Positions 5,189 through 36,068 of a stretch of 64,000 nt of DNA are shown here, in pieces. The stretch's first letter is position 1. Every line of letters starts with the position of its first letter. The notes beneath the pieces are model-generated. The model did no database searches. It saw only the letters and a list, made by a program, of their open reading frames with translations, and was not told the origin of the DNA. The DNA comes from Escherichia phage phiLLS: the sequence record NC_047822.1; one strand, 5' to 3'. Position numbers and translations under genes: made by a program.

Positions 5189-5729
5189 AAAGTTACCTAG
5201 CCAAGAAAGATTAAAAGAAATACTAATCTATGACCCAGATACTGGTATATTTACTAATAAGGTAAGTCGTGGTAGGGGAGGAAAAGCAGGTTCGCTAGCT
5301 GGATACCTAAGAAAAGACGGCTATATAACTATTAAGATAGATAAAATAGATTATTTAGCGCATAGGTTAGCCTTTCTATACATGACAGGATCAATACCTG
5401 ATTTAATAGACCACAAAAATAGAATTAGGTCAGATAATAGGTGGATAAATCTAAGAGAAGCTACAAGCCAGTCTAATAACAGAAATTGTACCGCATCGAG
5501 TAAATCTGGATATCTAGGTGTACACTGGAACAAACAACTACAGAAATGGCAAGTACAGGTGATTGATAATAATGGTAAAAATATTTACGGGGGTGTTTTT
5601 GACTACTTAGACCTAGAAAGTGCGGTCATAAAGGCTAATGAACTAAGAAAAACACTTCATGGTAACGAAGCAGTTATAGAAGATTTCTATACCAACTATT
5701 ACCCACCAATAGAGGAACTTAATAAGTGA
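5181..5729 (+). CDS. HNH homing endonuclease
   Basis: HNH motif IDHKNRIRSDNRWINLREAT; paralogous to the 1690-2190 protein. Confidence 0.7.
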   Translation: MSKKLPSQERLKEILIYDPDTGIFTNKVSRGRGGKAGSLAGYLRKDGYITIKIDKIDYLAHRLAFLYMTGSIPDLIDHKNRIRSDNRWINLREATSQSNNRNCTASSKSGYLGVHWNKQLQKWQVQVIDNNGKNIYGGVFDYLDLESAVIKANELRKTLHGNEAVIEDFYTNYYPPIEELNK

Positions 5730-8696: not shown

Positions 8697-8749
8697 TAGA
8701 CCAACTTTAAACAAATTCAAATCTCAAACTTCATATAAGGAAGCAAATA

Positions 8750-9388
8750 ATGACTACTCGTATTTCTAAAACTCGCGCTCTAGCAACTATCAAATCTCTG
8801 GAAGCTAAAATCCGTAAAGCTACTGAACAGCAGCTTCTGATCGCTGTTGGTGAAGGTAAGGATAAAAACCAGGTTGTAGTTGGCGCTGCAATCGAAGTAG
8901 CTGATCTGTCTACTCGTATTAAGACTGATTTCCAGTCTCTGCTGGATATGATGTCCCAGCGTGATTGTATCAAAGCTGCTCTGATTAAAAGCAATGCGGA
9001 AACAATCGTTGAGATTGGCTCTCGTAAGATGACTGTTGCGGAAGCAATTGAAGCTAAGCGTTCTATGGAACTTAAAGCCCAATTGCTGGCTAACATGCGT
9101 AAGCAGTTCCATGCCGCTACGGTTAAGTTTAATACGCAGAAAGCACAGTTTGATGCTAAATATGAGCGTTTGCAGGATAGCATGGCTACCCGCGATAAGA
9201 AAACTTCCGAAGATGAAGTTAAAATGCAGCTCAACCTGCTGGAACTCAAGAATACTCCATTCTTGATTGATCCGCTGGAACTGGAAAAGCTGATTAAGCA
9301 GCATGACGAGGAATACCAGGACTTTGCAACAAATGTTGACTTTGTTCTGTCCGAGTCTAACGCCTCTACCTTCATTGAAGTAGAGTAA
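8750..9388 (+). CDS. Hypothetical protein
   Basis: 212-aa ORF with RBS; helical; the overlapping minus-strand ORFs are judged spurious. Confidence 0.55.
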   Translation: MTTRISKTRALATIKSLEAKIRKATEQQLLIAVGEGKDKNQVVVGAAIEVADLSTRIKTDFQSLLDMMSQRDCIKAALIKSNAETIVEIGSRKMTVAEAIEAKRSMELKAQLLANMRKQFHAATVKFNTQKAQFDAKYERLQDSMATRDKKTSEDEVKMQLNLLELKNTPFLIDPLELEKLIKQHDEEYQDFATNVDFVLSESNASTFIEVE

Positions 9389-9771
9389 TAATTTAAAAGC
9401 TAGTAAATCGGTAGACGAAAGCCCAAGCATCTTACCTCGCAGCAGCGGTTGAAATACGAGGTTAAATAAGACCGCTGACCATACTATAAAATATAATCTA
9501 TTGGAGATTATGTTTATTACACCAGCCTTTTAAGCTGACACGTAAGAACAAAGCGTCGTTGATATTACCGACACAACTTCAAAGATCAACATTTAAGTAT
9601 GAAAGCTGAAAAGTTTAAAGAACTCAAACTTCTAAACTTCTAAAGCTAAAAGATGCAAAGTATTCGTTGATGATTCAAACCCTAGATCAAAGGTACATGG
9701 CTCATAAGATATGGCCTGTGGCGCCTCTAGGCTGTTTATCGGTTTACTAGTTTCACAATTTAAAAATGTAT

Positions 9772-12244: not shown

Positions 12245-13192
12245 ATGTTTGCTACTAAAAATATGAAAGAACTGACTTCTGAGCAGAAAGTAATTCGTAC
12301 TATTAAACGTTGGGGTATTGGTGCTGTAGTTGGTTTAGCAGGTTTAGTCCTAGCTTTTAATTCATATACTATTGTTTCTGATGGTACGGTTAAAACCCAA
12401 ACATTCCTGGGTAAAGTAGACCCTAATCCTGTATTACCTGGTTTTCATCTTGTAAACCCATTTGCATCTTTCGATACTTTTAGTACAAAAGACATTGCTG
12501 TAAAATTAGATAAACTTCAGGTTCCTAGTCAGGATAAGTTTAAATCCACTGTTGACCTGACTGTTATGTTGCAGTTTGATGGTTCTAAGGCACCAATTAA
12601 CCGTATTAACGCAGGTACTCAGGACCAGGCGCTAGACAAGTATGTAACTGAAAAATTACTGTCTACTATTCGTGAGTTTGGTAAATCTGTACCTAAAGCA
12701 CAAGATTTATTTGATGCTAAAATTCAGGCTCAATTGCAAACTGCAATTCAACAGGAAGTTGAAGAGTATGCACGCCCATATGGTTACACAGTTAAGCAGG
12801 TGTTTCTTCAGGATATTACTTTGCCACCAGTAATTATGGAGCAAGTACAAAATACAAAAGTTCGTGAAGAACAAGTTAATGCGGCTAAAGCTGAATTGGC
12901 TCGTGTTGAACAAGAAGCACAGCAGAAAGTCAAACAAGCTGAAGCAGATCGTGAAGCACGTAACAACCAAGCTATCGCTAATGAACGTGACGCCGATGCT
13001 AAGCTGTATGCAGCTAAGAAAGAAGCTGAAGCTAACGCCGCATTGCAACGTACCATTACTCCTGAGATGATTCGTTGGAAGCAATTGGAAGTCGAAATGA
13101 TTCGTGCTCAGAAATATCAAGGTGGTGTACCTCAGACTGTGGTAGGTACTGGCTACGATGGTCAAATGATCATGGATATGCGTAATAAATAA
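12245..13192 (+). CDS. SPFH/band-7 (stomatin/prohibitin/HflC-like) membrane protein
   Basis: N-terminal TM segment, SPFH-like core, C-terminal coiled coil. Confidence 0.5.
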   Translation: MFATKNMKELTSEQKVIRTIKRWGIGAVVGLAGLVLAFNSYTIVSDGTVKTQTFLGKVDPNPVLPGFHLVNPFASFDTFSTKDIAVKLDKLQVPSQDKFKSTVDLTVMLQFDGSKAPINRINAGTQDQALDKYVTEKLLSTIREFGKSVPKAQDLFDAKIQAQLQTAIQQEVEEYARPYGYTVKQVFLQDITLPPVIMEQVQNTKVREEQVNAAKAELARVEQEAQQKVKQAEADREARNNQAIANERDADAKLYAAKKEAEANAALQRTITPEMIRWKQLEVEMIRAQKYQGGVPQTVVGTGYDGQMIMDMRNK

Positions 13193-13216
13193 TATCCGCA
13201 CGTAACATCTGAAGTA

Positions 13217-13250
13217 AGCCCTGCGTTCCCTGGAGAGCGCAGGGCTTTTC
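13217..13250 (+). terminator. Rho-independent terminator
   Basis: Hairpin agccctgcg...cgcagggct followed by TTTTCT. Confidence 0.65.
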
Positions 13251-13269
13251 TGTACTTAAGATAAAAGAA

Positions 13270-13298
13270 AAGCCCCTAAGTCTTTCTACTAGGGGCTT
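13270..13298. terminator. Bidirectional terminator hairpin
   Basis: Perfect stem aagcccct...aggggctt with T-rich flanks on both strands; lies between convergent genes. Confidence 0.5.
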
Positions 13299-13516
13299 TA
13301 TTGTTTGGTTTCTTAGAACCATATACTCTTGTTACAGCAACCACCCATACGGGAGGCCAATCTTGACTGAAAATCTACTCTAGGGGGCAGGATAAGAGTA
13401 GGCTTAAAGGCAAAGGGATTGAACGCCGGTATTTGTGTAAACATTGCTGGAGAGCAACAACGTGCTACAGGCATTGGGCAGCACGAAACAGATTTTCTGC
13501 AACACATAATTTCTCC

Positions 13517-13933
13517 TTAGGAGTTATTACCACCATTTTGAGCTTTTGCAACTTGGCTTTGGCAGAAGCTATTAAACTTACCCATAAGTGATACAAGCTG
13601 TTTCCCATCCTCTGTCTTTGCGAAGTCTTCGAAAAGGGCTAGTACTGCCTGTCCTTCCGCAGAAACCTGCGGTTGTTGGGTTTGTTGCTGAACTTGCTGC
13701 TGAGCCACCTGTTGCTGCATTTGTTGAGGCATTTGCGACTGCCCGCTCATTTGCTGCATCATTTGCATAGGACTCACACTTCCAGGGTTTTGCTGGAGTT
13801 GTTGCTGCATCTGTTGCGCTTCTGCTAAACGCTGTTGCAATTGTTGTAAGTAGGGGTTATCCAGACCCGGAATGGGCTGCTGGGAGCCCCTACTTTGATT
13901 AAGTCCGTTATTTACAAAACCATATTTACTCAT
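13517..13933 (-). CDS. Hypothetical Gln-rich low-complexity protein
   Basis: 138-aa minus-strand ORF, poly-Q/QM repeats; AGGAGG RBS. Confidence 0.5.
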   Translation of the reverse strand: MSKYGFVNNGLNQSRGSQQPIPGLDNPYLQQLQQRLAEAQQMQQQLQQNPGSVSPMQMMQQMSGQSQMPQQMQQQVAQQQVQQQTQQPQVSAEGQAVLALFEDFAKTEDGKQLVSLMGKFNSFCQSQVAKAQNGGNNS

Positions 13934-13954
13934 AATGGGCTCCTCCCCCTAATA

Positions 13955-14947
13955 TTAAGCCGGCAGTTTAGCCTGCAGACCAGCCAGAGTCTGAGTGATA
14001 GCACCAAGACTTACAGCGATTTGATTAATTACCTGACCGTTAGCACCGTTACCCGCAGCGATTGCTTCACGTAGGCGACATGCATCTAACTCATCCTGAA
14101 TACGAGCAGTAGTTACACCAGCGATAGCAGTCTGAAGTTCACAGCAACATTCAGCGATCTGACGTTCCAGAGAGTTCTGGTTAGCACACATCTGAGCCTG
14201 AACAGCGGCAAACTGGTTATTAGTTTGTAAAGTCTGCTGGAAAGCGATCTGTGCAGAATCAAACTTATCTTGTGCACGAGCTATCTGATTAGCTGCGAAA
14301 GATTGATCAATCTGGCGAGAAAGATCGAACTGACCCTGAATAACGTTGCGAGTTTCCTGACAGATCTGATTAGACAGATTAGCACCTGTACCATAGATCG
14401 TAGTTAGTACAGACTGAGTATCACGGCTCTGGTTTTGGGATGTCTGGCTAAACCCATTGTTAACTGCGCTTAAAACAGCTCCAGTACCCTGGTTAGCTTC
14501 TGTACGAGTAGTGTTAATAGCTGCTAGAATACTAGCGGTATCTTGGTTCTGAAGTACTGCATCAACTGCGGTACCATCACCAACTACACCACGTCCACCG
14601 AATCCACCGAAACCACCGAATCCGCCTGTTAATAGAGCACCGATTAGGATAGCTCCGAATAGTCCCATACCTTCACCACCGAAAGCACCTGCGTTTGCTG
14701 GGTAACCACCCAGTAGGCCAGGGAAGCCACTAGTAAATACGTTTACTGGTTCTTGCATTTTATGTTTTCCATATTTATGACAATGTTCATCGTCATCTTC
14801 TTCATCATCGTGTTCACGATGTTTTTCTTCGTAGGCTCTGACCTTCTCCCACTTTTTCTTATCTGATTCCTCGTGACGGTGCAGTTCTGCTGCAACGCTA
14901 GCGACGGTCTCAGGACTCTTAGCTACTTCTTCTGTCATTTTTGACAC
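13955..14947 (-). CDS. Hypothetical Gly-rich and Gln/Asn-rich protein
   Basis: 330 aa; acidic His-rich N-terminus, glycine-zipper hydrophobic segment (GGFGGFGGFGG), C-terminal Cys cluster; strong AGGAGGTG RBS. Confidence 0.55.
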   Translation of the reverse strand: MSKMTEEVAKSPETVASVAAELHRHEESDKKKWEKVRAYEEKHREHDDEEDDDEHCHKYGKHKMQEPVNVFTSGFPGLLGGYPANAGAFGGEGMGLFGAILIGALLTGGFGGFGGFGGRGVVGDGTAVDAVLQNQDTASILAAINTTRTEANQGTGAVLSAVNNGFSQTSQNQSRDTQSVLTTIYGTGANLSNQICQETRNVIQGQFDLSRQIDQSFAANQIARAQDKFDSAQIAFQQTLQTNNQFAAVQAQMCANQNSLERQIAECCCELQTAIAGVTTARIQDELDACRLREAIAAGNGANGQVINQIAVSLGAITQTLAGLQAKLPA

Positions 14948-15145
14948 CTCCTAGTATATAGAAAATGTGTGTCTCTTTGATCACTCATCCATAACATATA
15001 CTTTACACTACCCCAGCGAAAATGTCAAGGGGTCTTTAAAAATTGCCCCTGAATTTTTAGTGGGGTCACAAATTTTGGTCCTCACCACTTATCTGCTATC
15101 CTTAAGTGCCCTATGATTTTCCTCTAAAAAGTTAAAAAAATTTGA

Positions 15146-15174
15146 TTGCTTGAATGCTAAATTCTCTGTATAAT
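15146..15174 (+). promoter_or_regulatory. T5-type early promoter
   Basis: -35 TTGCTT, 17-bp spacer, -10 TATAAT. Confidence 0.55.
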
Positions 15175-15204
15175 ATATCTATAAATTTGAAAGAGGAACC
15201 AAAT

Positions 15205-15723
15205 ATGAATGTTGATGAGCTAACACAGCACCTCTTATCTAGAGGATTTGATACAGATAAATATCATTGCTGGTTAAGTCCGGAAGGATGGCTAACAGTC
15301 CCGTTGTATGACTTCTCTGGGATGTTGAGGGGCTATCAAACTTATAATCCTTCTGCTCCAAAAGGTCATGGTAAGTGCCCCTTTGAAGCTAAATACTTTA
15401 CTTATTCTACTACCCAGTGTGTATGGGGACTAGAAACTCTCAATGGAGATGAAAAAGTAGTATTGATTGCTGAATCTGTATTTAAGGCAGTTGCGTTACA
15501 TAATGCTGGTTATCCAGCCCTAGCAATGTTGGGTTCTTCTCCAGGAAAAGCGTTATTAAAGCAACTGAAATTACTACCTTTTAAATTGGTAGCTGTCGGA
15601 GATAATGATCCTGCGGGTGAAAAATTTGCTAGAAAATTAAACGGCTTTGTTTCTCCCGTAGATGTGGATGAGATGTCTACCGAAAACTTGAAAAATTTTC
15701 TTGCTATGAAGCTAAATTTCTAA
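15205..15723 (+). CDS. Hypothetical protein, possible Toprim-domain protein
   Basis: ATG with AGAGGAAC RBS; IAES...GDNDPAGE resembles Toprim acidic motifs. Confidence 0.4.
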   Translation: MNVDELTQHLLSRGFDTDKYHCWLSPEGWLTVPLYDFSGMLRGYQTYNPSAPKGHGKCPFEAKYFTYSTTQCVWGLETLNGDEKVVLIAESVFKAVALHNAGYPALAMLGSSPGKALLKQLKLLPFKLVAVGDNDPAGEKFARKLNGFVSPVDVDEMSTENLKNFLAMKLNF

Positions 15724-16132: not shown

Positions 16133-16209
16133 GGGGGTGTAATCGAATTGGCATAGGTACTGGACTTAAAATTCAGGTTTTGTGGGTTCGAATCCCACCA
16201 CCCCTACCA
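16133..16209 (+). tRNA. tRNA with anticodon TAA (Leu-type anticodon) but short variable loop
   Basis: Acceptor gggggtg/cacccct, anticodon stem ctgga/ttcag with loop CTTAAAA, T-arm gtggg-TTCGAAT-cccac, CCA encoded. Confidence 0.5.
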
Positions 16210-16224
16210 AACTAAGGAAATAAG

Positions 16225-16392
16225 ATGTATAGACATCCACCTCCGCCAACACGTCGTTCTAGAGAAGTTATCCTCATGGAATTGACTAAAAACTTCAAGG
16301 CAACTCTTGAAGATAGAGATCTAGGTACAGATGAAGACGTTGATTTCATTTGTAAACTATTAAAAATGAAGCTGGAGAAACATCATGGCTAA
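16225..16392 (+). CDS. Hypothetical small protein (55 aa)
   Basis: ATG with AGGAAA RBS; below ORF-track length cutoff. Confidence 0.35.
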   Translation: MYRHPPPPTRRSREVILMELTKNFKATLEDRDLGTDEDVDFICKLLKMKLEKHHG

Positions 16393-16591
16393 CCGTGAAA
16401 TTACTATGCAACGAATCATGACTAAAGGCATGATAGCCGAGGCAGGTATTGAACAAGAAGTAAAAGGCTATTACGAACAGATTAAGACTATTATAGACTC
16501 TGCTAAAAACACCGGAGAAAAAGAGCATGGTGCGGCAATTATGGCTATAACTCTTATTAGTCTAGACTTGGCCGAAGAATCTGGAGTTTAG
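16385..16591 (+). CDS. Hypothetical small protein
   Basis: 68-aa ORF; start overlaps the preceding small ORF. Confidence 0.4.
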   Translation: MANREITMQRIMTKGMIAEAGIEQEVKGYYEQIKTIIDSAKNTGEKEHGAAIMAITLISLDLAEESGV

Positions 16592-16621
16592 CTCCTCCAA
16601 ACAGAATTTTTAAAAATGTAC

Positions 16622-16651
16622 TTGCCTTTTGCTTTAAATTTCTGATATAAT
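16622..16651 (+). promoter_or_regulatory. T5-type early promoter
   Basis: -35 TTGCCT, 18-bp spacer, -10 TATAAT. Confidence 0.5.
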
Positions 16652-16681
16652 AGTTATATAAATTGATGGAGGAGTTAACGA

Positions 16682-16957
16682 ATGCAAAATCGTGTTGTAG
16701 CAACTGGTATTGAAAGTGCAATCTGTAAATCCTGGGAAGGCTGGGAAGGTGAGATTGAATGGCTTTATTTCTATGATGTAGAACTTCTACCGGAAGTTAA
16801 AGCTAAATGTATTGAAGCTGGCATGGCTCCAGATGCAAAAGCTGATATTGATATTTTAATGTCTGAACTTAAAGGTCGTGTAGTTACCGTTAGTAATGAG
16901 GGCGAAGAAGTTTTCGAACTTCCGTTCTCCTTAACTGTCACTCCTAAGTTCGACTAA
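16682..16957 (+). CDS. Hypothetical protein
   Basis: 91-aa ORF with GGAGG RBS after promoter. Confidence 0.5.
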   Translation: MQNRVVATGIESAICKSWEGWEGEIEWLYFYDVELLPEVKAKCIEAGMAPDAKADIDILMSELKGRVVTVSNEGEEVFELPFSLTVTPKFD

Positions 16958-16993
16958 CTAATACAGCACTGAGCAAGTTCTTTAAAATTTGAC

Positions 16994-17022
16994 TTGCTCA
17001 GTGCTATAAAACTTGATATAAT
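16994..17022 (+). promoter_or_regulatory. Promoter embedded in a terminator hairpin, upstream of tRNA genes
   Basis: -35 TTGCTC, 17-bp spacer, -10 TATAAT; the -35 lies in the 3' arm of hairpin agcactgagcaagt...acttgctcagtgct. Confidence 0.5.
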
Positions 17023-27666: not shown

Positions 27667-28365
27667 ATGAGGATTATTTCTAAGTTCGCCGATGTGTATG
27701 ATTTGCAGAACAGTTTGTTTGACCCAGATCGTGTGTGGGAACGTAAAACTGAGGAGTTACTGGTTAAAGTAACCGATGATGCAGAAAAGAACATTGTGCA
27801 TACTCGCCAGGTATTTCGTGATGGTTCGCTATCTTTCCATGGTGATTTCGAATATTTTGTAAACCCACTATTTGTTGCAGGTGAAGTTTACTGGTTACAC
27901 GAGCTGTACTGCTGGCATCCAGCATTTAGCTTCAAAACGTTCAACCTCGACACTATGTTCGATAAAATGGAAGAGATGGGATTGCATGCTCGCTCTTACT
28001 TAATGGATAAAAGTCGTGGGGATGTTCGTGAAACAATGCGTGATCTGCTAGTTGAAGCAAAACCTAAAGCAGAACGTATCTTATCCGAACTGCGTGTACC
28101 GATTGCATATGTGAAAGGTATTAAAAAGAATGATAACGATGATGTTCGTAACTTCGTAATTCAGACTAACATTCGTTTCCATCAGTCAGGTATTCCGTGG
28201 CAGGAAATTGAAAGTAACTTATACCGTTTACACCAAGTTCTCGAACAGTATATCTTTGGTGTACTAGGAACTGGTGAGCCTGATATGATTAAAGTATCAG
28301 ATAAAGACAGGTTAGCAGCGCATGGATTTGATACAAAAACTTCTTTCAGGAATATGGCAAGGTAA
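27667..28365 (+). CDS. Hypothetical protein
   Basis: 232-aa ORF with AGAGGA RBS after promoter. Confidence 0.55.
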   Translation: MRIISKFADVYDLQNSLFDPDRVWERKTEELLVKVTDDAEKNIVHTRQVFRDGSLSFHGDFEYFVNPLFVAGEVYWLHELYCWHPAFSFKTFNLDTMFDKMEEMGLHARSYLMDKSRGDVRETMRDLLVEAKPKAERILSELRVPIAYVKGIKKNDNDDVRNFVIQTNIRFHQSGIPWQEIESNLYRLHQVLEQYIFGVLGTGEPDMIKVSDKDRLAAHGFDTKTSFRNMAR

Positions 28366-28771
28366 GTGGTATATCCTGGGAGCAGGTCTAGCGATAGGCA
28401 TCGGGTTCGGTGCTTATCACTTAGTAAATAAAGTGGAGACTTTGGCGGGAGATCTTGCGGTAGCTACTAAAAAGATTTCTTCTCTAGAGACTTCCCTTAA
28501 CAAGGTGAAAGCTGAAAGCGAACTTCGTGAGACTAGAATGAATCAGTATTTCACAATGAATAATATTTCGCAAGCAGATCTAGACAAAAAGATTAAGCAG
28601 CTAGATAAAGCTCTTAGTCGTCAAGATGTTATCGCTGCAAAGCCTGGATTGGTAACATTAATTGCTAAAAAGCAGAATAAAGAATTCGAGGAAAGATTAG
28701 CGTGTTTAACTGGAAACTTGGAGTACTGCTCGCAGCCACAATCACAATCGCAGGCTGTGCAGAAGAAATAA
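28322..28771 (+). CDS. Putative i-spanin (Rz-like)
   Basis: N-terminal TM helix then coiled coil; 3' end overlaps, in another frame, a lipoprotein gene. Confidence 0.45.
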   Translation: MDLIQKLLSGIWQGKWYILGAGLAIGIGFGAYHLVNKVETLAGDLAVATKKISSLETSLNKVKAESELRETRMNQYFTMNNISQADLDKKIKQLDKALSRQDVIAAKPGLVTLIAKKQNKEFEERLACLTGNLEYCSQPQSQSQAVQKK

Positions 28772-29055
28772 AACCAGAGCCATCTCATGAGTTAAAGCAA
28801 GCTCATGTAGACTGGCCTAAAGGACTTCAACCTTGTAGCTTTGACTTTAAGTTTGAAAAGAAATTAGCTACAAATGGAGAAGATGGCGTAGTAGTTGTTG
28901 TACCGTATAAAGATTGGAATGCAAAAGCAAAATGTGAGGAAGCAGTTTACTCTTACATTTCACGACTGACTGGTATGGTTTGCTTCTATCGCCAAGATTT
29001 ACAAGAAAAACGTTGCTTAGTTTACTATCCACCAATTAACAATAGGAAAGATTAA
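28702..29055 (+). CDS. Putative o-spanin (Rz1-like) lipoprotein
   Basis: Signal peptide with lipobox (TIAGC); several Cys; start embedded in the preceding gene. Confidence 0.45.
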   Translation: MFNWKLGVLLAATITIAGCAEEIKPEPSHELKQAHVDWPKGLQPCSFDFKFEKKLATNGEDGVVVVVPYKDWNAKAKCEEAVYSYISRLTGMVCFYRQDLQEKRCLVYYPPINNRKD

Positions 29056-30572: not shown

Positions 30573-31229
30573 TTGGAAAAGTTCTTACAATTATTAACGG
30601 TACTGCTCCAAGAAGCGAAAGATCCAGCATCGCTTCTTAAACGTCTGCTAACTATCTTAGTTGCTGTCATTATTTTCTTATTTGTTAGTAATACTAGCGA
30701 GGTGATGTCATTCTTAAAGACTTTCTCCACGTCTGCGGTCCTACAGGATGTTCAAACTCAAAGGATAGATAACTTTCCTAATGTAGCTAGAGAAAAGAGC
30801 ATGGTACTCTTTTCTCAAACGGGTGCGGATGCTGTTTTTGTCGTCAAGTATAAACCCGATGCCATTAATGATTATTCTAACATTATTGCATGGGAAAGCA
30901 ATGCGCAATTAGATAGGGCTGACTTGGCCGATAAAGCGGTAAATAAAACGTCTGAGCTATATAGACGTCACTTGGAAGGCTTTAACTACGCATCGGATTT
31001 AAGTGTAAAAGTAAATAAATACATGGGGTTAAATATACCTGCGTTTAAGAACGTTACTTTTAATTACATATACACTTGTCCATATTTCAATCTAAACAAT
31101 ATCTATGCTGGATATATTGGTATTGCTTGGAAAGATAATCCTGTAGATGCAGCCGATTCTGAGAAATTTAACGAGTATTTAACAAAGCTCTGTTCCCCAC
31201 AACAGAGATCTTTAGGTAGATCAATATGA
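30573..31229 (+). CDS. Holin (T4 gpT-like class, TTG start)
   Basis: 218 aa, single N-terminal TM helix plus large periplasmic domain; immediately upstream of and overlapping the endolysin. Confidence 0.55.
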   Translation: MEKFLQLLTVLLQEAKDPASLLKRLLTILVAVIIFLFVSNTSEVMSFLKTFSTSAVLQDVQTQRIDNFPNVAREKSMVLFSQTGADAVFVVKYKPDAINDYSNIIAWESNAQLDRADLADKAVNKTSELYRRHLEGFNYASDLSVKVNKYMGLNIPAFKNVTFNYIYTCPYFNLNNIYAGYIGIAWKDNPVDAADSEKFNEYLTKLCSPQQRSLGRSI

Positions 31230-31639
31230 GTTTTAAATTTGGTAAAAATAGCGAAAAACAATTAGCTACCGTTAAGCCAGAGCTACAAAAAGTAGCTCGT
31301 AGAGCTTTAGAATTATCTCCATATGATTTCACGATCGTACAGGGTATTCGTACAGTAGCACAAAGTGCCCAGAATATTGCTAATGGTACTTCATTTTTAA
31401 AAGATCCTAGTAAAAGCAAGCATATTACTGGTGATGCTCTTGATTTTGCTCCATACATTAATGGCAAAATTGATTGGAATGACTTAGAAGCATTTTGGGC
31501 AGTTAAAAAGGCTTTTGAACAAGCGGGTAAAGAACTAGGCATTAAACTTCGTTTTGGTGCTGATTGGAATGCTTCGGGAGACTATCACGATGAAATAAAA
31601 CGTGGTACCTATGATGGCGGTCATGTCGAACTAGTTTAA
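31226..31639 (+). CDS. Endolysin, L-alanyl-D-glutamate peptidase (M15 family)
   Basis: 137 aa; zinc-ligand motifs HITGDALDF and DGGHVE. Confidence 0.75.
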   Translation: MSFKFGKNSEKQLATVKPELQKVARRALELSPYDFTIVQGIRTVAQSAQNIANGTSFLKDPSKSKHITGDALDFAPYINGKIDWNDLEAFWAVKKAFEQAGKELGIKLRFGADWNASGDYHDEIKRGTYDGGHVELV

Positions 31640-31650
31640 TTAATAACTGA

Positions 31651-31674
31651 GGCGGGAATATTCCCGCCTTTTTA
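31651..31674 (+). terminator. Rho-independent terminator after the lysis genes
   Basis: Perfect hairpin ggcgggaatattcccgcc followed by TTTTT. Confidence 0.7.
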
Positions 31675-31716
31675 GGCAAAGGGGGCTTTAATAATTTTTA
31701 AAGATAGGAGAAAGCC

Positions 31717-32133
31717 ATGTTTGCAGAACTATTCACTATGATGCTGCTAGGTATCTGGAAAATAAGTCTAGTAGTATTCGTTTTAATGATAGTCTTTACT
31801 ATCATTGCATTAACTACCCGAAATAGCTTATTAATAAAGGTTATTCACGGACTAGAGTATATAATTATGGGTTCATTCGGCGTTTGTAAATGCAATTGCC
31901 ATAGAGATACGAAATATTGTTGGTTATGGATGGAACTAGAGAATCCTATATCCATAGCTTTGGCTGTTTCATTCGGCATGATTCTTATGGCCCTTACTCT
32001 AGCATTAATACCTTTGATGTTAGCTGGGGGAGTTACAGCGTATTTCACCCTTTTCTCCCCGATACTTATGTACTCAATTTACCCAATAACTATGTATCTA
32101 GTTAGGAAAAGATTTATACATGCAGTAGATTAA
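31717..32133 (+). CDS. Hypothetical multi-pass membrane protein
   Basis: 138-aa ORF, four hydrophobic segments. Confidence 0.5.
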   Translation: MFAELFTMMLLGIWKISLVVFVLMIVFTIIALTTRNSLLIKVIHGLEYIIMGSFGVCKCNCHRDTKYCWLWMELENPISIALAVSFGMILMALTLALIPLMLAGGVTAYFTLFSPILMYSIYPITMYLVRKRFIHAVD

Positions 32134-32146
32134 GATAAAAAAGTAG

Positions 32147-32175
32147 TTGACTTTTAGCCCTAGTTATTATATAAT
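32147..32175 (+). promoter_or_regulatory. Early promoter
   Basis: -35 TTGACT, 17-bp spacer, -10 TATAAT. Confidence 0.55.
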
Positions 32176-32208
32176 ATATACATAAATTAGTTAAGAGAGG
32201 TATATAAT

Positions 32209-32640
32209 ATGTCTGATCGTTTCTACACTCAAATGGCGGAACATTTTCGTATACCACATTACGAGCTAAACATTGCACTCCGCGATCATGACTCTCCTGA
32301 GTACAAAAAGCTCGAAAAGAAAGCGGAAAAATCTATTGATACAAAGGTAGGTGCATCTATGTCTAAGGGCAAAAAGTTAACTCGTCTTGATCTTAATAAA
32401 ATTTTAACTGAACTTTTGGGTACTGATATTGAGGGTGCTAAATTACCGCTTCTTGTACTAGAGACTATGATTAAAAAGGTCAAAAATAAAGAATATAAGA
32501 AGGTAGAAGTCCCAGAAGGCAGATTAAAGGCTCCTTATCAGGAAGCATTAACCGAGTGTTTGGGTGTAAATCTTGATCTGAGCACCGCAACCGTAAAAAC
32601 TATGAAAAACTTCTTAGAGGCCATTAATAACTATGAGTAA
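32209..32640 (+). CDS. Hypothetical protein
   Basis: 143-aa ORF with AGAGAGG RBS after promoter. Confidence 0.5.
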   Translation: MSDRFYTQMAEHFRIPHYELNIALRDHDSPEYKKLEKKAEKSIDTKVGASMSKGKKLTRLDLNKILTELLGTDIEGAKLPLLVLETMIKKVKNKEYKKVEVPEGRLKAPYQEALTECLGVNLDLSTATVKTMKNFLEAINNYE

Positions 32641-32923
32641 ATTAGTATATCTATTGAAAGGTTCTACTTGCAATCCTTGCAAAATGTTTGAGCCAGTATT
32701 TGATAAAGTAGTCAATGACTATAATTTGGAAGTCCATAAAGAGACTGATAATACAGAATTAATGCAGAAATTTGGTGTACGCCAAGTTCCTGTAGTAGTT
32801 CTAGCGGATCGCTTACCTAATGGTCGAGTAGAAGCTAATCATATTTTGATTGGACGCCAGCTTCGTAAAGAAACTATGCACGAAGCTATTAAAAATTTCC
32901 TGGATGATAATCCAGAGGATTAA
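32633..32923 (+). CDS. Thioredoxin/glutaredoxin-like protein
   Basis: 96 aa with CxxC (CNPC) near the N-terminus. Confidence 0.4.
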   Translation: MSKLVYLLKGSTCNPCKMFEPVFDKVVNDYNLEVHKETDNTELMQKFGVRQVPVVVLADRLPNGRVEANHILIGRQLRKETMHEAIKNFLDDNPED

Positions 32924-32930
32924 TAAACCA

Positions 32931-32962
32931 AGCCTGATCTTAGCGGATCAGGCTTTTATTTT
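32931..32962 (+). terminator. Rho-independent terminator
   Basis: Hairpin agcctgatc...gatcaggct followed by TTTTATTTT. Confidence 0.65.
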
Positions 32963-32964
32963 AC

Positions 32965-32993
32965 TTGCTTTTTGCTAAAAATTTTGGTATAAT
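32965..32993 (+). promoter_or_regulatory. T5-type early promoter
   Basis: -35 TTGCTT, 17-bp spacer, -10 TATAAT. Confidence 0.55.
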
Positions 32994-33050
32994 AATTATA
33001 TAAATTGATAAGAAGGCTATCTACACACTACAAGAAATAGGGGTATTCCA

Positions 33051-33428
33051 ATGAACTATGCATATCTAATTATTAATAATAACGTAGTTTGTGGTACTCG
33101 CGCTGTTGAGATGGGTATTACAGAAGAAAAGTATAAGTCACTTCCAGAAAAGGAACAACAATATTATGTTGAAGAAGCTGCTTGGGAGTATGCTGAGGTT
33201 TATCCCGAAGAACGTGAAGATTGTCTTACTCTTGTTGTGTCTCTGGGTTTGGTTGGCTGTGATACCGAAGTTGATACAGACCTAGAGACTTTAGAGGAGT
33301 GGGAAGAGTTAGATATTTCAGCTAAAAACTCCTTAATCCGTGAAGCCTTTTGGGAAGCTGTAGATTGCCATGTAGTATTTGAGCCTAATGATGAAGAGGC
33401 TGAAAAACATACTAACCATTGGAGATAA
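33051..33428 (+). CDS. Hypothetical acidic protein
   Basis: 125-aa Glu-rich ORF. Confidence 0.5.
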   Translation: MNYAYLIINNNVVCGTRAVEMGITEEKYKSLPEKEQQYYVEEAAWEYAEVYPEEREDCLTLVVSLGLVGCDTEVDTDLETLEEWEELDISAKNSLIREAFWEAVDCHVVFEPNDEEAEKHTNHWR

Positions 33429-33432
33429 TCAA

Positions 33433-33678
33433 ATGTTAGCAGAACAAGCAAAACGTTTAGCTAGAATAAATAGAGCTGCACTCCTTAAGAGCCGAAAGAA
33501 AACGTATAGATGGGTTAAGCGGAGGATAGTATCTTCTGTAGAGATTGGAGGTTCCTTTGTACAGCTTAATCGTGACGAAATTAGTTATGAAGCTATAAAA
33601 GCCCTCAATAAAGAGGGTTATACTCTCCAATTATCTAATGAGTATGGCACAACTATTTTAACTGTTATTTGGGAATAA
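33433..33678 (+). CDS. Hypothetical protein
   Basis: ATG at 33433 with GGAGATAA RBS; the ORF-track start overlaps the preceding gene. Confidence 0.45.
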   Translation: MLAEQAKRLARINRAALLKSRKKTYRWVKRRIVSSVEIGGSFVQLNRDEISYEAIKALNKEGYTLQLSNEYGTTILTVIWE

Positions 33679-34544
33679 TTATGAAAAAAGAATTTAATGT
33701 GCATAAAACACTAGTAGTACCTGATGATGTTAACTTATTCTTTGTTGGTGATATTCATGGATGCAACGATTTACTAGAAGATGCACTACAATTAGCTGGC
33801 TATAACGGCAAGAAAGACTGCGTTGTATGCGTGGGGGATTTAATTGATCGAGGCACGCAGAACCTACAAGTTTTAGCCAAATTCCTGTATAATCCACGCT
33901 TTATCAGTGTCCGTGGTAATCATGACCAATTTATGATTGTGGGAGATTGGGCTAACTGGATGTATAACGGTGGTATGTGGGCCATGAATGAACTAGATGC
34001 AGATACCATTAAAAATATTGCTGAAGACATGGCTGAAAAAATGCCAGTATTTCTGACTGTATTGCATCGTGGTAAAAAGTATGGTGTTGTTCATGGTGGT
34101 GTACCTTTTACGTACAAAGAATGCGGTAACGAAGTAGAAACCCCAGTATGGGATAGTCTTATTGCACAAGTAGAAGCAGCTAAGGAAGACCCCCATGACC
34201 ATCCTGGATACCATGTTGAGCCATACTTATGGGATCGAGATGTAATCCAAGAAATAGGTTTTCACTTAGCTAAAAATGGTGAAGAACACTCATATTTCCA
34301 GCGTTATGCAGGGTTTAAAGAGAAATACATGGTAGAAGTACCTCCGGTTAATGGAGTAGACTTTGTATTTCATGGGCATACCGGAGTACCTTACCCGATT
34401 TTATACCAGAACCGTGTTTACCTAGATACTGGCGGTGTTTTCAACGGGCAGTTGACGGTTGCGCAAGTTAACGATGAAACTGGCAAAATCACCACATTTA
34501 CCACAGACAAAAATGATAGCTGCGGTGTACAGAGGATCCTTTAA
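33669..34544 (+). CDS. Serine/threonine protein phosphatase (metallophosphatase)
   Basis: GDIHG, GDLIDRG, GNHD motifs. Confidence 0.7.
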   Translation: MGIIMKKEFNVHKTLVVPDDVNLFFVGDIHGCNDLLEDALQLAGYNGKKDCVVCVGDLIDRGTQNLQVLAKFLYNPRFISVRGNHDQFMIVGDWANWMYNGGMWAMNELDADTIKNIAEDMAEKMPVFLTVLHRGKKYGVVHGGVPFTYKECGNEVETPVWDSLIAQVEAAKEDPHDHPGYHVEPYLWDRDVIQEIGFHLAKNGEEHSYFQRYAGFKEKYMVEVPPVNGVDFVFHGHTGVPYPILYQNRVYLDTGGVFNGQLTVAQVNDETGKITTFTTDKNDSCGVQRIL

Positions 34545-34843
34545 TGAATGATAGAATGAAAGAAGTACAAGAAGAATTACGAGCAATGCGTATTGATGCC
34601 CTTCGTTGGAGGGCATTAGTTAATGCTTTCGTCAAAGGAGACACCGGAGTAATATATTCTGGAATAGCAGTCAATTTTTGTTTTAATTCTCCTGCTGAAA
34701 TAGAGATAGAAACAAGGCTTACTACCTACCTTAATGAGGTAGATCTTAAGGAAGGAGAGACTCCTGAGGAGTTTAAAACCAAAGTGTTAACCTCTTGGGT
34801 TGATAGTTTAATACAGAATAAGGAAAAGAGTAATGAAAGTTAA
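34544..34843 (+). CDS. Hypothetical protein
   Basis: 99-aa ORF translationally coupled to the phosphatase. Confidence 0.45.
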   Translation: MNDRMKEVQEELRAMRIDALRWRALVNAFVKGDTGVIYSGIAVNFCFNSPAEIEIETRLTTYLNEVDLKEGETPEEFKTKVLTSWVDSLIQNKEKSNES

Positions 34844-35423
34844 ATTCTGGTCAGACTTGCATCTAGACCACCCTGGAGCGTTACGTTTCCGTCCGTGGTT
34901 TAAGAACATGAAAGAGCACGATGAGTATATTCTAGATACTTTGTCTAAGCATATTGGTAAACGAACAAAACTTATTTTGCTAGGAGATATTGCAGTAGGT
35001 CGTGAAGGTCTAACCAAATTAAAGTCGGTTATCCACAATGTCCCTAATCAACTTATTATGGGTAATCATGATGCGGAACGTCAAGGACTGAGCATCAGGG
35101 ATTTAGCGGAAGTTTATGACGATATCCAGGCTCTAGGTAAACAGACTGGAGGCGGCAAAAAGTTTTGGCTATCTCACTGCCCTTTGCACCCTAATGAACT
35201 TCGTGGCAAACTAAATATTCACGGACATGTACATACTACTTCTCTACGTGATCCACGTTATATTAATGTCTCATTTGAAATGAGTAAAACTCCAATCCCA
35301 CTGGAGGATATTGTATCTGGTAAGTTTACTAGCTATGATAGAGTAGTTAATTGTACTACCGGCGAAGTATTACAAATAGGGGAAGATGTAGCTGCCGTAT
35401 TGCGTGGAGATATAAATGTCTAA
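34833..35423 (+). CDS. Calcineurin-like metallophosphoesterase
   Basis: SDLHLD, GD and GNHD motifs. Confidence 0.6.
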   Translation: MKVKFWSDLHLDHPGALRFRPWFKNMKEHDEYILDTLSKHIGKRTKLILLGDIAVGREGLTKLKSVIHNVPNQLIMGNHDAERQGLSIRDLAEVYDDIQALGKQTGGGKKFWLSHCPLHPNELRGKLNIHGHVHTTSLRDPRYINVSFEMSKTPIPLEDIVSGKFTSYDRVVNCTTGEVLQIGEDVAAVLRGDINV

Positions 35424-35531
35424 GTATATAGCTGAGGCTATTATTAAACGAATCATACAAACAGTAGCAATACTTATAATCATTTGTATTGCTATTGGCA
35501 CAGGATTAGGCATTTTAACTAAAAGTTTTAT

Positions 35532-35560
35532 TTGCTAAAATGCTTAAGTTTCTGTATAAT
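35532..35560 (+). promoter_or_regulatory. T5-type early promoter
   Basis: -35 TTGCTA, 17-bp spacer, -10 TATAAT. Confidence 0.55.
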
Positions 35561-35590
35561 TACTTTATAAATTGATGAGAAGGAATCAAA

Positions 35591-36022: not shown

Positions 36023-36039
36023 GTAATTAAAAAATTCAG

Positions 36040-36068
36040 TTGCTTTAGGCCTTAAAATTCTGTATAAT
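36040..36068 (+). promoter_or_regulatory. T5-type early promoter
   Basis: -35 TTGCTT, 17-bp spacer, -10 TATAAT. Confidence 0.55.

What the first reader, a model, noticed from the sequence alone, without database searches (positions are those of the whole stretch)
13517..14947. Minus-strand two-gene island encoding Gln-rich and Gly-rich low-complexity proteins
In an otherwise + strand early region, two convergently oriented genes sit between a bidirectional terminator and their own minus-strand promoter/RBS. One product is a 138-aa poly-Q/QM protein; the other is 330 aa with an acidic His-rich N-terminus, a glycine-zipper hydrophobic segment and a Cys-rich C-terminus. Such composition is unusual for phage early proteins and suggests a membrane-active or aggregating function.
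Basis: seen in the sequence. Interest (0 to 1): 0.5.

Follow-up and report, generated by a model that had tools for sequence, protein, structure and literature searches.

The report
Three-gene cysteine-rich accessory cassette of T5-like phages
The two odd-looking genes are real and belong to a conserved, self-contained and dispensable three-gene unit of T5-like phages; its main protein belongs to a very large phage protein family that nobody has characterised, so the function is still inferred.

Summary
The window is a T5-like phage, about 98% identical to Escherichia phage SP15. The finding corresponds to T5 genes T5.077 and T5.078 (SP15 ORF76 and ORF77). The large gene starts at ATG 14938, giving 327 aa. 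A third gene, T5.079 (64 aa, 13313-13507), belongs to the same unit.

The unit has its own sigma-70 promoter (P12), closely spaced genes each with a strong ribosome-binding site, and a bidirectional terminator. All three genes are conserved across about 220 phage genomes. The same trio occurs in divergent ~110-kb phages and in a lambdoid phage between Q and the lysis genes.

The 327-aa protein has a His/acidic N-terminal helix, a Gly-rich hydrophobic segment, a helix of about 155 residues and an invariant CCC motif. Its superfamily exceeds 4,300 sequence clusters (T5-like, crAss-like, Seuratvirus/eiAU-like phages) and matches no Pfam, NCBIfam, PADLOC or PDB entry.

The poly-Q stretch of the 138-aa protein is a variable-length linker, not the conserved part. 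Published deletion strains lacking the promoter or the whole block are viable and assemble normal virions. Canonical spanins lie elsewhere in the window.

Best reading, held with low confidence: a cysteine-bridged helical stalk complex at the membrane, acting as a moron-like host-interaction module.

The parts
15000..15028 (-). Sigma-70 promoter P12 (TTGACA, 17-nt spacer, TAAAGT, then ATATG)
   Evidence: Consensus scan scored 10/12. It occurs once in the window against 0.02 expected. It is exactly conserved in T5, phage 5, JLBYU40, SP15, STG2 and HMD-P2. The same hexamers occur in the divergent contig L077. It is annotated 'promoter P12' in NC_005859 and AJ604531.
13955..14938 (-). Gene 1 (T5.077 / SP15 ORF76), 327 aa. 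It has an N-terminal charged His-rich helix, a Gly-rich hydrophobic segment (residues ~92-114 in 327-aa numbering), a continuous helix of about 155 residues, and an invariant CCC motif.
   Evidence: ORF. The ATG start was chosen because the GGAGG Shine-Dalgarno lies 8 nt upstream and homologues align from residue 3/4. dN/dS is 0.15-0.28. AF2 model. CCC is present in 271 of 283 family members.
13517..13933 (-). Gene 2 (T5.078 / SP15 ORF77), 138 aa. It has a conserved N-terminal coil, a variable Q/M/P-rich linker, and a conserved 45-aa C-terminal domain with an invariant Cys.
   Evidence: ORF. The Shine-Dalgarno GGGGGAGGAG lies 6 nt upstream and the intergenic gap is 21 nt. dN/dS is 0.15-0.32. 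Matches PHROG 7894 at E=4e-79. Alignment A5.
13313..13507 (-). Gene 3 (T5.079, unannotated in SP15 and most records), 64 aa. It has 8 Cys as four CC pairs, 8 Pro, and starts MCC.
   Evidence: ORF. The Shine-Dalgarno AAGGAG is present, 9 nt after the gene 2 stop. The ORF is intact at 64 codons in 6 of 6 loci and has full-length tblastn matches in 219 of 220 records. 12 of 20 variable sites fall at codon position 3. Positional homologues of 63-69 aa starting MC(C), with a central CC and an NPF motif, occur in L076, L077 and the lambdoid L078.
13263..13306 (.). Bidirectional intrinsic terminator (stem GCCCCTA/TAGGGGC, flanked by A-run and T-run) that ends the cassette
   Evidence: Sequence and fold. 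Annotated 'efficient bidirectional rho-independent terminator' in NC_005859 and 'ter1' in AJ604531. Equivalent bidirectional terminators follow gene 3 in L078 and L077.

Best explanation
The finding is the T5.077-T5.078-T5.079 cassette. It is an autonomous, moron-like accessory transcription unit set antisense in the early tRNA/anti-defence region of a T5-like phage. It has promoter P12, three closely spaced genes each with a strong ribosome-binding site, and a bidirectional terminator.

Shown:
- The three genes are real and co-inherited as a trio across very divergent phages.
- The cassette is dispensable for lytic growth and for virion assembly.
- Gene 1 belongs to a huge uncharacterised phage superfamily. 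The family is defined by a Gly-rich hydrophobic segment, a very long helix and an invariant CCC motif.
- Every one of the three proteins carries invariant cysteines.

Inferred mechanism: gene 1 forms an oligomeric helical stalk, roughly 20 nm or more if the helix is continuous, held at the cytoplasmic membrane by its Gly-rich hydrophobic segment. Its strongly conserved C-terminal 80 residues, including CCC, dock the small adaptor (gene 2) and the Cys-pair peptide (gene 3) through disulfide or metal-thiolate bridges. The complex acts on the infected cell rather than on replication, lysis proper or virion structure. Candidate roles are envelope modification, exclusion of competitors, or counter-defence. 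Topology, oligomeric state, timing and target are not established.
For: Transcription-unit anatomy: with database annotation.

Coding and conservation: dN/dS; 220 records.

Trio conserved at 37-44% identity, always as an antisense island with its own terminator. This holds in ~110-kb Demerecviridae-like contigs and in a lambdoid contig between antiterminator Q and holin/lysozyme/Rz.

Superfamily size and signature:
- 536 clusters at 50% identity with E<=1e-3.
- More than 4,300 clusters at 90% identity.
- HHalign probability 99.3% between the T5-like and environmental subfamilies.
- CCC present in 271 of 283 members.
- PHROGs 8119, 9288 and 16490 are all 'unknown function'.

Structure: AF2 with a 41-sequence alignment gives helix 12-48 (pLDDT >90), a short helix at the hydrophobic segment, and one helix spanning 173-327 (pLDDT 70-85).

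Invariant cysteines: gene 1 C254 and C267-269; gene 2 C124; gene 3 C2, C17 and C18.

Dispensability:
- The T5Mos deletion 30661-38625 (PMC11464382) removes P12 and the first 187 codons of T5.077. Coordinates were checked against NC_005859.
- The ~8-kb deletions in T5n and SP15m give viable phages (bioRxiv 10.1101/2023.03.15.532788).
- The sequenced BF23 isolate lacks ORF071-075 and still yields complete virions by MS/MS (PMC10644984).
- crAss001, whose annotated structural-gene region was inspected here, lacks the gene.

Neighbourhood: the cassette is directly adjacent to rad, the anti-retron gene (SP15 ORF75).

Host range: all cultured-phage hits infect Gram-negative hosts.
Against: No experiment addresses function, timing or localisation.

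Membrane anchoring is only borderline. The Kyte-Doolittle mean is 1.72, my hand estimate of insertion free energy is about +1.6 kcal/mol, and the hydrophobic stretch in L078 is only about 8-11 residues.

Flanking charges do not settle topology. Genes 2 and 3 lack signal peptides. So a periplasmic stalk could not meet them, and the complex may be entirely cytoplasmic.

Hydrophobic periodicity of the long helix is weak (P about 0.03-0.07) and has no single heptad register. The oligomeric coiled coil is therefore a prediction from a monomer model with pTM 0.24.

Physical interaction among the three proteins is inferred only from co-inheritance and shared cysteines.

Outside the T5-like and lambdoid clade, the family has different neighbours: a ~98-aa beta-rich protein, a DUF7841 protein and a ferritin-like protein. 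The trio is therefore not universal.
Confidence: 0.35

Rival explanations
1. Counter-defence effector. The cassette is the outermost member of the T5/SP15 'anti-defence island' and neutralises a host immune system. One candidate is the unmapped anti-AVAST2 activity lost in T5n.
For: The cassette is directly adjacent and divergent to rad (SP15 ORF75). The ~8-kb island deletions end inside T5.077 and remove its promoter. T5n lost infectivity on AVAST2 cells and the determinant has not been mapped. The BF23 authors call the 5-gene block an anti-defence locus. The autonomous, mobile cassette architecture is typical of such genes.
Against: Nine island fragments were tested against retrons Ec67, Ec78 and Ec83, and only F6, F7 and F8 (tRNA-Tyr, ORF71-73, rad) were active. 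No activity is reported for a fragment carrying ORF76. The cassette occurs without rad in Epseptimavirus, lambdoid and crAss-like phages. A long helical stalk with a hydrophobic segment resembles no known anti-defence protein.
Confidence: 0.15
2. Spanin-like envelope protein. Gene 1 is anchored in the inner membrane and its helix spans the periplasm, stabilised by intermolecular disulfides. It would aid outer-membrane disruption or block incoming phage DNA.
For: The architecture is an N-proximal hydrophobic segment followed by a helix of about 155 residues. That is roughly 23 nm if the helix is continuous, which is about periplasm width from general knowledge. Conserved Cys recall the Rz/Rz1 disulfides. 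[quoted passage not shown] In crAss-like genomes the gene lies just after holin and L,D-carboxypeptidase. In the lambdoid contig it lies next to the lysis genes. crAss-type members end in an aromatic/Gly tail (...NSFWG).
Against: T5-like phages already have annotated i-spanin and o-spanin genes plus holin and endolysin (JLBYU40). In the window these correspond to 28322-29055 and 30573-31639. There is no Pfam Phage_lysis hit. By inspection, genes 2 and 3 have no signal peptide or lipobox. In the lambdoid contig the cassette is antisense to the lysis operon, which has its own Rz. From memory, Bacteroides hosts of crAss-like phages lack DsbA, which makes periplasmic disulfides unlikely. The cassette is dispensable for plaque formation.
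Confidence: 0.15
3. Minor virion or ejected protein. This would be a fibre-like or membrane-penetrating component whose Gly-rich 'fusion-peptide-like' segment inserts into the host membrane at infection.
For: In several crAss-like and environmental phages the gene sits in the head module, directly after scaffold and major capsid genes in 5 loci. In eiAU and Seuratvirus it follows the tail-fibre genes. crAss homologues are annotated 'spike protein/glycoprotein' or 'outer capsid protein/viral fiber'. Sub-threshold profile hits to HA2, coronavirus S2 and reovirus sigma-1 coiled coils have E of 0.2-0.7. The segment GLFGAI is identical to the start of the influenza HA2 fusion peptide (from memory; could be coincidence).
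Against: The PDB hits are not significant. The BF23 isolate lacking the block makes complete virions, and the MS/MS list matches the known T5 set with no such protein. crAss001 lacks the gene. T5Mos, T5n and SP15m are infectious. In T5-like and lambdoid phages the cassette is not in the structural operon.
Confidence: 0.1
4. Cytoplasmic metal-binding or metal-handling complex. The thiolates of CCC and the CC pairs, plus the His-rich N-terminus, would coordinate Zn, Cu, Ni or Fe.
For: Cysteines are invariant in all three proteins, none has an export signal, and the cytoplasm is reducing. There are 7 His in the first 62 residues of gene 1, and 15 or more in Epseptimavirus orthologues. The downstream gene in eiAU and Seuratvirus has a His-rich N-terminus. 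A ferritin-like protein lies at +2 in 10 of 38 loci, with a Pfam Ferritin hit at E=6e-4, below threshold.
Against: Each hint is weak and comes from a different clade. There is no homology to any metalloprotein. The His-rich region is poorly conserved and absent from most of the family. A 155-residue helix is not explained by metal binding.
Confidence: 0.1
5. First reader's version. The products are low-complexity, aggregation-prone or toxic proteins whose function lies in their composition (poly-Q, Gly-rich).
For: The composition is real. Q-rich small proteins also flank family members in two other clades.
Against: Poly-Q length varies from about 60 to about 10 residues among orthologues, while the flanking domains are invariant. 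The Q-rich neighbours elsewhere are not homologous (HHalign probability <1%). The most conserved part of gene 1 is the non-repetitive C-terminal 80 residues. Purifying selection acts on all the genes.
Confidence: 0.05

Closest known systems
Phage 'morons' (autonomous accessory transcription units, as defined for lambdoid phages by Hendrix and colleagues; from general knowledge)
   Same: The cassette has its own sigma-70 promoter and intrinsic terminator and is oriented against the surrounding operon. It is variably present, dispensable, and found at the classic Q-to-lysis junction in a lambdoid contig.
   Different: Here it sits in a virulent phage. GC content is raised (46% against 39%), but mostly through amino-acid composition and not through GC3. 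Expression from a prophage, which is the usual rationale for morons, does not apply to T5.
Two-component spanins (lambda Rz/Rz1, Pfam PF03245)
   Same: An N-proximal hydrophobic anchor is followed by a long helical domain with conserved Cys. A small Pro/Cys-rich protein of about 60 aa is encoded downstream. The family is restricted to phages of Gram-negative hosts.
   Different: There is no sequence similarity. The small partner has no lipoprotein signal. A canonical spanin pair exists elsewhere in the same genome. The cassette is dispensable and antisense to the lysis genes.
Class I viral fusion subunits (influenza HA2, coronavirus S2) and reovirus sigma-1 fibre
   Same: A Gly-rich hydrophobic peptide is followed by a very long helix. 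This is the source of the 'spike/fiber' labels on crAss-like homologues.
   Different: The matches are not significant (E 0.2-0.7). There is no C-terminal membrane anchor and no evidence of virion location. The resemblance is architectural only.
T5/SP15 anti-defence island (Rad, tRNA-Tyr, ORF71-73; bioRxiv 10.1101/2023.03.15.532788)
   Same: The cassette is physically contiguous with the island. It is lost, wholly or in part, in the same spontaneous deletions, and it is dispensable in defence-free hosts.
   Different: No anti-defence activity has been assigned to ORF76 or ORF77. The cassette is a separate antisense unit and occurs in phages that lack rad.

Membership tests
Moron-like autonomous accessory cassette | Own promoter and own terminator flanking the genes, independent of the surrounding operon | tested here: met
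   The promoter TTGACA-N17-TAAAGT is unique in the window and conserved in 6 of 6 loci. The bidirectional terminator is at 13263-13306. Both are annotated in T5. Promoter activity in vivo rests on the database annotation and was not tested here.
Moron-like autonomous accessory cassette | Dispensable and variably present among related phages, and able to occur in unrelated genomic contexts | tested here: met
   T5Mos, T5n, SP15m and BF23 deletions give viable phages. The same trio occurs in a lambdoid contig between Q and the lysis genes.
i-spanin / o-spanin pair (Rz/Rz1) | Sequence membership (PF03245 Phage_lysis or a spanin PHROG) | tested here: not met
   No Pfam hit. PHROG 8119 is 'unknown function'.
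i-spanin / o-spanin pair (Rz/Rz1) | Partner outer-membrane lipoprotein with signal peptide and lipobox Cys | tested here: not met
   Gene 2 (MSKYGFVNNG...) and gene 3 (MCCRKSVSCC...) have no hydrophobic signal sequence or lipobox. This was judged by inspection of the sequences.
i-spanin / o-spanin pair (Rz/Rz1) | It is the genome's spanin function and sits in or near the lysis cassette | tested here: not met
   The orthologous genome JLBYU40 annotates i-spanin, o-spanin, holin and endolysin elsewhere. The window equivalents are 28322-29055 and 30573-31639.
i-spanin / o-spanin pair (Rz/Rz1) | Type II N-in/C-out transmembrane anchor with a periplasmic coiled coil | tested here: inconclusive
   Hydrophobicity is borderline and flank charges are ambiguous. 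A long helix is predicted, but its periodicity is weak.
Class I viral fusion protein / viral fibre | Significant sequence or fold similarity to solved fusion subunits or fibres | tested here: not met
   The best PDB profile hits have E=0.016-0.7 (keratin, sigma-1, HA2, S2). Foldseek returns only vimentin, with E>3.
Class I viral fusion protein / viral fibre | Presence in the virion | not testable with these tools
   Indirect evidence only. BF23 virions, from an isolate lacking the block, are complete. crAss001 lacks the gene.
Anti-defence island gene | Demonstrated neutralisation of a defence system | not testable with these tools
   Only adjacency to rad is shown. No activity is reported for ORF76 or ORF77 in the retron screens.
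Known anti-phage defence systems (PADLOC) | Match to a PADLOC model | tested here: not met
   No hit for any of the three proteins.
Poly-Q / prion-like aggregating protein | The Q-rich tract is the conserved, functional element | tested here: not met
   The tract varies from about 60 to about 10 residues among orthologues, while the flanking domains are invariant.

The most novel reading that the evidence does not exclude
The 'CCC-stalk' proteins (PHROGs 8119, 9288 and 16490) would be a previously unrecognised and very abundant class of phage effector, shared by crAss-like, T5-like, Seuratvirus-like and lambdoid phages of Gram-negative hosts. In this reading the protein is a membrane-inserting, cysteine- or metal-clamped oligomeric stalk. 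It would remodel or bridge the host envelope, or disarm a host immune system, by a mechanism unrelated to spanins, holins or known anti-defence proteins. In T5-like phages it would work as an obligate trio with a small adaptor and an MCC-peptide.
Probability: 0.2. Interest if true: 0.8.

Novelty: new variant of a known kind. Interest (0 to 1): 0.5.

Why it matters
The genes have been annotated as 'hypothetical' since the T5 genome was sequenced, so the island itself is not new. What this analysis adds is its scope and context. Its main protein defines one of the larger phage protein families still without any description: more than 4,300 sequence clusters and an invariant CCC signature, with abundant members in human-gut crAss-like phages. 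In T5-like phages it travels as a fixed three-gene unit that can hop into lambdoid phages. It also sits at the edge of the experimentally defined anti-defence island of SP15 and T5, and part of that island's activity (anti-AVAST2) is still unmapped. T5 and SP15 are genetically tractable and spontaneous deletion strains already exist. A function found there would therefore annotate thousands of gut-phage genes at once.

Tried and rejected
- **Family and structure databases.** Pfam, NCBIfam, PADLOC and PHROG scans of all three proteins and of distant homologues gave nothing above threshold. PDB sequence and profile searches and a Foldseek PDB search gave nothing significant.
- **Structure prediction.** The first AF2 run, with 14 sequences, was poor (pLDDT 50). 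The second, with 41 sequences, was usable only for secondary structure.
- **Rfam.** A scan of the island gave no credible RNA family.
- **Spanin hypothesis.** It was weakened by finding the canonical spanins elsewhere.
- **Homology of Q-rich neighbours.** Q-rich neighbours in other clades are not homologous to T5.078 (BLASTP; HHalign).
- **Small 'MC...' ORFs outside the T5-like clade.** They were seen in Seuratvirus and phiWae15 but not in eiAU, so I do not rely on them.
- **Bacterial genomes and plasmids.** The GTDB pattern scan found one 2-kb MAG contig. E. coli genomes and plasmids gave no match.
- **Failed scans.** The search for related loci on the whole-family alignment failed because no block was conserved enough.
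- **Literature.** A search for T5.077, T5.078 and T5.079 by name gave zero papers. The PNAS 2026 RNA-seq supplements do not list these genes. The T5 virion proteomics paper PMC3911642 is not held.
- **Heptad analysis.** It gave only weak periodicity.
- **Topology.** The positive-inside rule was ambiguous.
Full report
**Identity of the window and of the island**

A 4.5-kb stretch around the finding is 98.3% identical to Escherichia phage SP15 and 96-98% identical to many Tequintavirus genomes. In the T5 reference (NC_005859) the equivalent stretch carries three genes, T5.077 (321 aa), T5.078 (138 aa) and T5.079 (64 aa). They lie between 'promoter P12' and an 'efficient bidirectional rho-independent transcription terminator'. 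The phage 5 record AJ604531 annotates the same layout as ORF 327aa, ORF 138aa and ORF 64aa. In SP15 the first two are E0157_076 and E0157_077, and the third is unannotated. All are labelled 'hypothetical'. Several GenBank records call the 138-aa protein a 'cAMP-dependent protein kinase catalytic subunit'. Pfam finds no kinase domain, so that label is spurious.

**Check of the observation**

The evidence that they are genes:
- dN/dS is 0.15-0.28 for the large gene and 0.15-0.32 for the 138-aa gene between the window, T5, STG2 and HMD-P2.
- PHROG matches are E=4e-203 and E=4e-79.
- tblastn finds full-length orthologues in about 220 phage records.

Two corrections are needed:
1. The GTG at 14947 lies inside the Shine-Dalgarno GGAGG. 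The ATG at 14938 is 8 nt downstream of it, and homologues align from residue 3/4. The product is therefore 327 aa.
2. A third ORF, 13313-13507, belongs to the unit. It has an AAGGAG Shine-Dalgarno and starts 9 nt after the gene 2 stop. It is intact at exactly 64 codons in all six loci compared and in 219 of 220 tblastn matches. 12 of its 20 variable sites are at codon position 3.

Synonymous divergence in the third ORF is about three-fold lower than in gene 1 for the same genome pairs (0.15 against 0.46). Its central ~130 nt are almost invariant. This suggests an extra nucleotide-level constraint that I could not explain. Rfam finds nothing there.

**Transcription signals**

- The only good sigma-70 match in 13000-15300 is TTGACA-N17-TAAAGT at 15028-15000 on the minus strand.
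- The pattern occurs once in the 64-kb window against 0.02 expected.
- With its discriminator ATATG it is exactly conserved in T5, phage 5, JLBYU40, SP15, STG2 and HMD-P2.
- The same hexamers and spacing precede the cassette in a contig whose gene 1 is only about 40% identical.
- Downstream, the hairpin GCCCCTA...TAGGGGC (13272-13296) is flanked by an A-run and a T-run, so it can terminate both strands.
- A second hairpin (13218-13245) terminates the convergent SPFH gene. It contains GAGCGCA, the T5 nick consensus, and T5 annotates a major single-strand interruption at the same place.

**The three proteins**

Gene 1 (327 aa):
- AF2 with a 41-sequence alignment gave mean pLDDT 65 and pTM 0.24.
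- It predicts a confident helix at 12-48 and a disordered His/acidic stretch.
- It predicts a short helix in the hydrophobic segment GLFGAILIGALLTGGFGGF (Kyte-Doolittle 19-residue mean 1.72).
- It predicts one uninterrupted helix from 173 to 327.
- Hydrophobic periodicity of that helix is weak (P about 0.03-0.07, period 3.5-3.8, no single register). An oligomeric coiled coil is therefore a reasonable prediction but not shown.
- The most conserved part is the C-terminal ~80 residues (C..NQN.L..QIAECCCE...DELD..RL...NGQ.INQIAVSLG.I.Q.LA.LQ.K).

Gene 2 (138 aa):
- The poly-Q/QM stretch shrinks from about 60 residues to about 10 in distant orthologues.
- The N-terminal YLQQLQQRL coil and the C-terminal EGQAVLALFEEFAKTxDGKQLVSxxGKFNSxCQS domain are nearly invariant.

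Gene 3 (64 aa):
- It has four CC pairs and 8 Pro.
- Positional homologues in three divergent clades are 63-69 aa, start MC(C), keep a central CC, and share an F..P..NPF motif.
- All three proteins thus carry invariant cysteines.

**Relatives elsewhere**

- A single-sequence search reached only 33 clusters.
- A profile search of 1.84 billion representatives found 536 clusters at E<=1e-3 and 112 at E<=1e-10.
- A profile search of the 90%-identity collection found more than 4,300 clusters, mostly on 90-108-kb gut contigs.
- Three PHROGs are linked (8119 T5-like, 9288, 16490 crAss-like), and all are 'unknown function'.
- HHalign between the T5-like and the environmental subfamily gives 99.3% probability and E=5e-20.
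- 271 of 283 members examined carry CCC.
- There is no Pfam, NCBIfam, PADLOC or PDB relative.
- crAss-like homologues are labelled 'spike protein/glycoprotein' or 'outer capsid protein/viral fiber' in GenBank. Non-significant profile hits to HA2, S2 and sigma-1 coiled coils (E 0.2-0.7) suggest how such labels could have arisen.
- Among cultured phages, every hit infects a Gram-negative host: Enterobacteria, Bacteroides, Edwardsiella and Aeromonas.
- A pattern scan of 185,579 species genomes found only one 2-kb MAG contig. E. coli genomes and plasmids gave nothing.

**Genomic contexts**

- In two ~110-kb Demerecviridae-like contigs (gene 1 37-44% identical to the window protein), the same three genes form an island antisense to all neighbours, with its own terminator.
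- In a 26-kb lambdoid contig the trio lies antisense between antiterminator Q and holin/lysozyme/Rz. It comprises 316 aa, a clear T5.078 homologue of 139 aa, and a 64-aa peptide starting MCGCC with four CC pairs. A bidirectional terminator follows. This is the classic position and anatomy of a moron.
- Outside this clade the partners differ. In 38 dereplicated viral loci, the gene immediately downstream is a ~98-aa beta-rich protein in 24. An HTH protein and a 4-TM protein often lie upstream. A DUF7841 protein and a ferritin-like protein (Pfam Ferritin E=6e-4, below threshold) lie downstream. In five loci the gene directly follows scaffold and major capsid genes.
- In crAss-like cr116_1 it lies after holin and L,D-carboxypeptidase and before the capsid genes. 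crAss001 lacks it.
- In eiAU and a Seuratvirus it follows the tail genes, and the next gene has a His-rich N-terminus.

**Dispensability and neighbourhood in T5 and SP15**

- The divergent neighbour at 15154-15723 is rad, the anti-retron gene, defined experimentally as SP15 ORF75 (189 aa) (bioRxiv 10.1101/2023.03.15.532788).
- Spontaneous ~8-kb 'anti-defence island' deletions in T5n and SP15m give fully viable phages.
- The T5Mos deletion is 30661-38625 (PMC11464382). I checked that the paper's coordinates match NC_005859 through the tRNA content of its 'Fragment 1'. In that record P12 is at 37954-38028 and T5.077 at 38064-39029. T5Mos therefore lacks the promoter and the first 187 codons of gene 1.
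- The sequenced BF23 isolate lacks a ~4-kb block, ORF071-075 of AY587007, which starts with rad (PMC10644984). By gene order this is rad, the three cassette genes and the SPFH gene. That mapping is my inference from the numbering.
- BF23's MS/MS virion protein list is complete and matches the known T5 set.
- The cassette is therefore dispensable for growth and for virion assembly in the laboratory.
- Canonical i-spanin, o-spanin, holin and endolysin genes are annotated elsewhere in JLBYU40. The window equivalents are 28322-29055 and 30573-31639. CPT genome announcements also describe a T5-type lysis cassette with spanins.

**Interpretation**

Established:
- The island is an autonomous three-gene accessory cassette.
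- Its proteins are conserved and co-inherited.
- Cysteines are the common invariant.
- Gene 1 belongs to a huge uncharacterised family.
- The cassette is neither essential, nor the genome's spanin, nor a required virion part.

Inferred: I commit, with low confidence (about 0.35), to a cysteine-bridged helical stalk complex. It would be held at the inner membrane by the Gly-rich hydrophobic segment and would act as a host-interaction module. I cannot decide whether the stalk is periplasmic or cytoplasmic. Genes 2 and 3 have no export signals, which favours a cytoplasmic complex and metal-thiolate chemistry. The Gram-negative-only distribution and the length of the helix favour an envelope role.

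Rivals, in order of my belief:
1. Counter-defence effector, given the location at the edge of the anti-defence island and the unmapped anti-AVAST2 activity.
2. Spanin-like envelope bridge or exclusion factor.
3. Minor virion or ejection protein.
4. Metal-handling complex.

**Novelty and score**

The ORFs, the promoter and the terminator were already annotated in T5, so the island is not a discovery. Within the searchable literature I found no description of the points below:
- the size and signature of the gene 1 superfamily;
- the conserved trio, including the unannotated third gene;
- the cassette's moron-like mobility into a lambdoid phage;
- its position relative to the experimentally defined anti-defence island.

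I rate it a new variant of a known kind: an accessory moron-type cassette with uncharacterised content. Interest is 0.5. The feature is real, widespread and experimentally tractable, but its mechanism is still only inferred.

Noticed in passing
window 15154-15723 (+): The 189-aa TOPRIM protein next to the island, labelled 'DNA primase' in many records, is the orthologue of SP15 ORF75. That gene is Rad, the experimentally shown anti-retron protein (bioRxiv 10.1101/2023.03.15.532788).
   Followed up: partly
window 13218-13249 (+): The terminator hairpin of the SPFH gene contains GAGCGCA, the T5 nick-site consensus. T5 annotates a major single-strand interruption at the equivalent position. The divergent contig L077 has GGCGCAGG in the equivalent hairpin at 5521-5549.
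   Followed up: partly
window 13350-13480 (inside the 64-codon ORF): The central ~130 nt of gene 3 are almost invariant at the nucleotide level, even between T5 and Epseptimavirus STG2. Synonymous divergence is about three-fold lower than in gene 1. This points to an additional RNA- or DNA-level constraint. There is no Rfam match.
   Followed up: partly
window 13517-13933 (-) and GenBank records OK272480, PQ880147 and others: T5.078 orthologues are mis-annotated as 'cAMP-dependent protein kinase catalytic subunit'. No kinase domain is detectable.
   Followed up: yes
window 12245-13192 (+): The convergent neighbour is an SPFH/Band-7 membrane protein (Pfam E=2e-17), annotated 'lipoprotein' in T5. 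By my reading of the gene numbering it is lost together with the cassette and rad in the BF23 isolate.
   Followed up: no
window 28322-29055 and 30573-31639 (+): These ORFs have the same sizes and order as the i-spanin (149 aa), o-spanin (117 aa), holin (218 aa) and endolysin (137 aa) annotated in JLBYU40. They lie in the early-strand region.
   Followed up: partly
window 16133-17000 (+): The small ORFs among the tRNA genes correspond to SP15 ORF71-73. The SP15 study reports that two of them together neutralise retron Ec83.
   Followed up: no
window 43517-45626 (-): This is a second group of minus-strand ORFs (127, 95 and 334 aa) in the otherwise plus-strand region, with negative GC skew. I did not examine it.
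   Followed up: no
window 8731-9430: Three overlapping ORFs of more than 210 aa lie on both strands (8731-9375 -, 8750-9388 +, 8780-9430 -). This is unusual and I did not examine it.
   Followed up: no
L014 (MK443266, 'UNVERIFIED Pseudomonas phage RSP') 4001-4459: This record holds a partial match, 59.5% identical, to the C-terminal half of gene 1 in a 63-kb unverified Pseudomonas phage record. It could be a divergent homologue or an assembly chimera.
   Followed up: no
L075 (Salmonella phage STP-SP5) 2934-3640: The Seuratvirus family member appears split by a frameshift. The Gly-rich N-terminal part is in one frame and the CCC-bearing part in another.
   Followed up: no
L016 5629-6018 (crAss-like cr116_1) and 7 other loci: A conserved, unannotated 4-TM membrane protein of about 130 aa lies upstream of the family gene in crAss-like genomes, just after the L,D-carboxypeptidase.
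   Followed up: no
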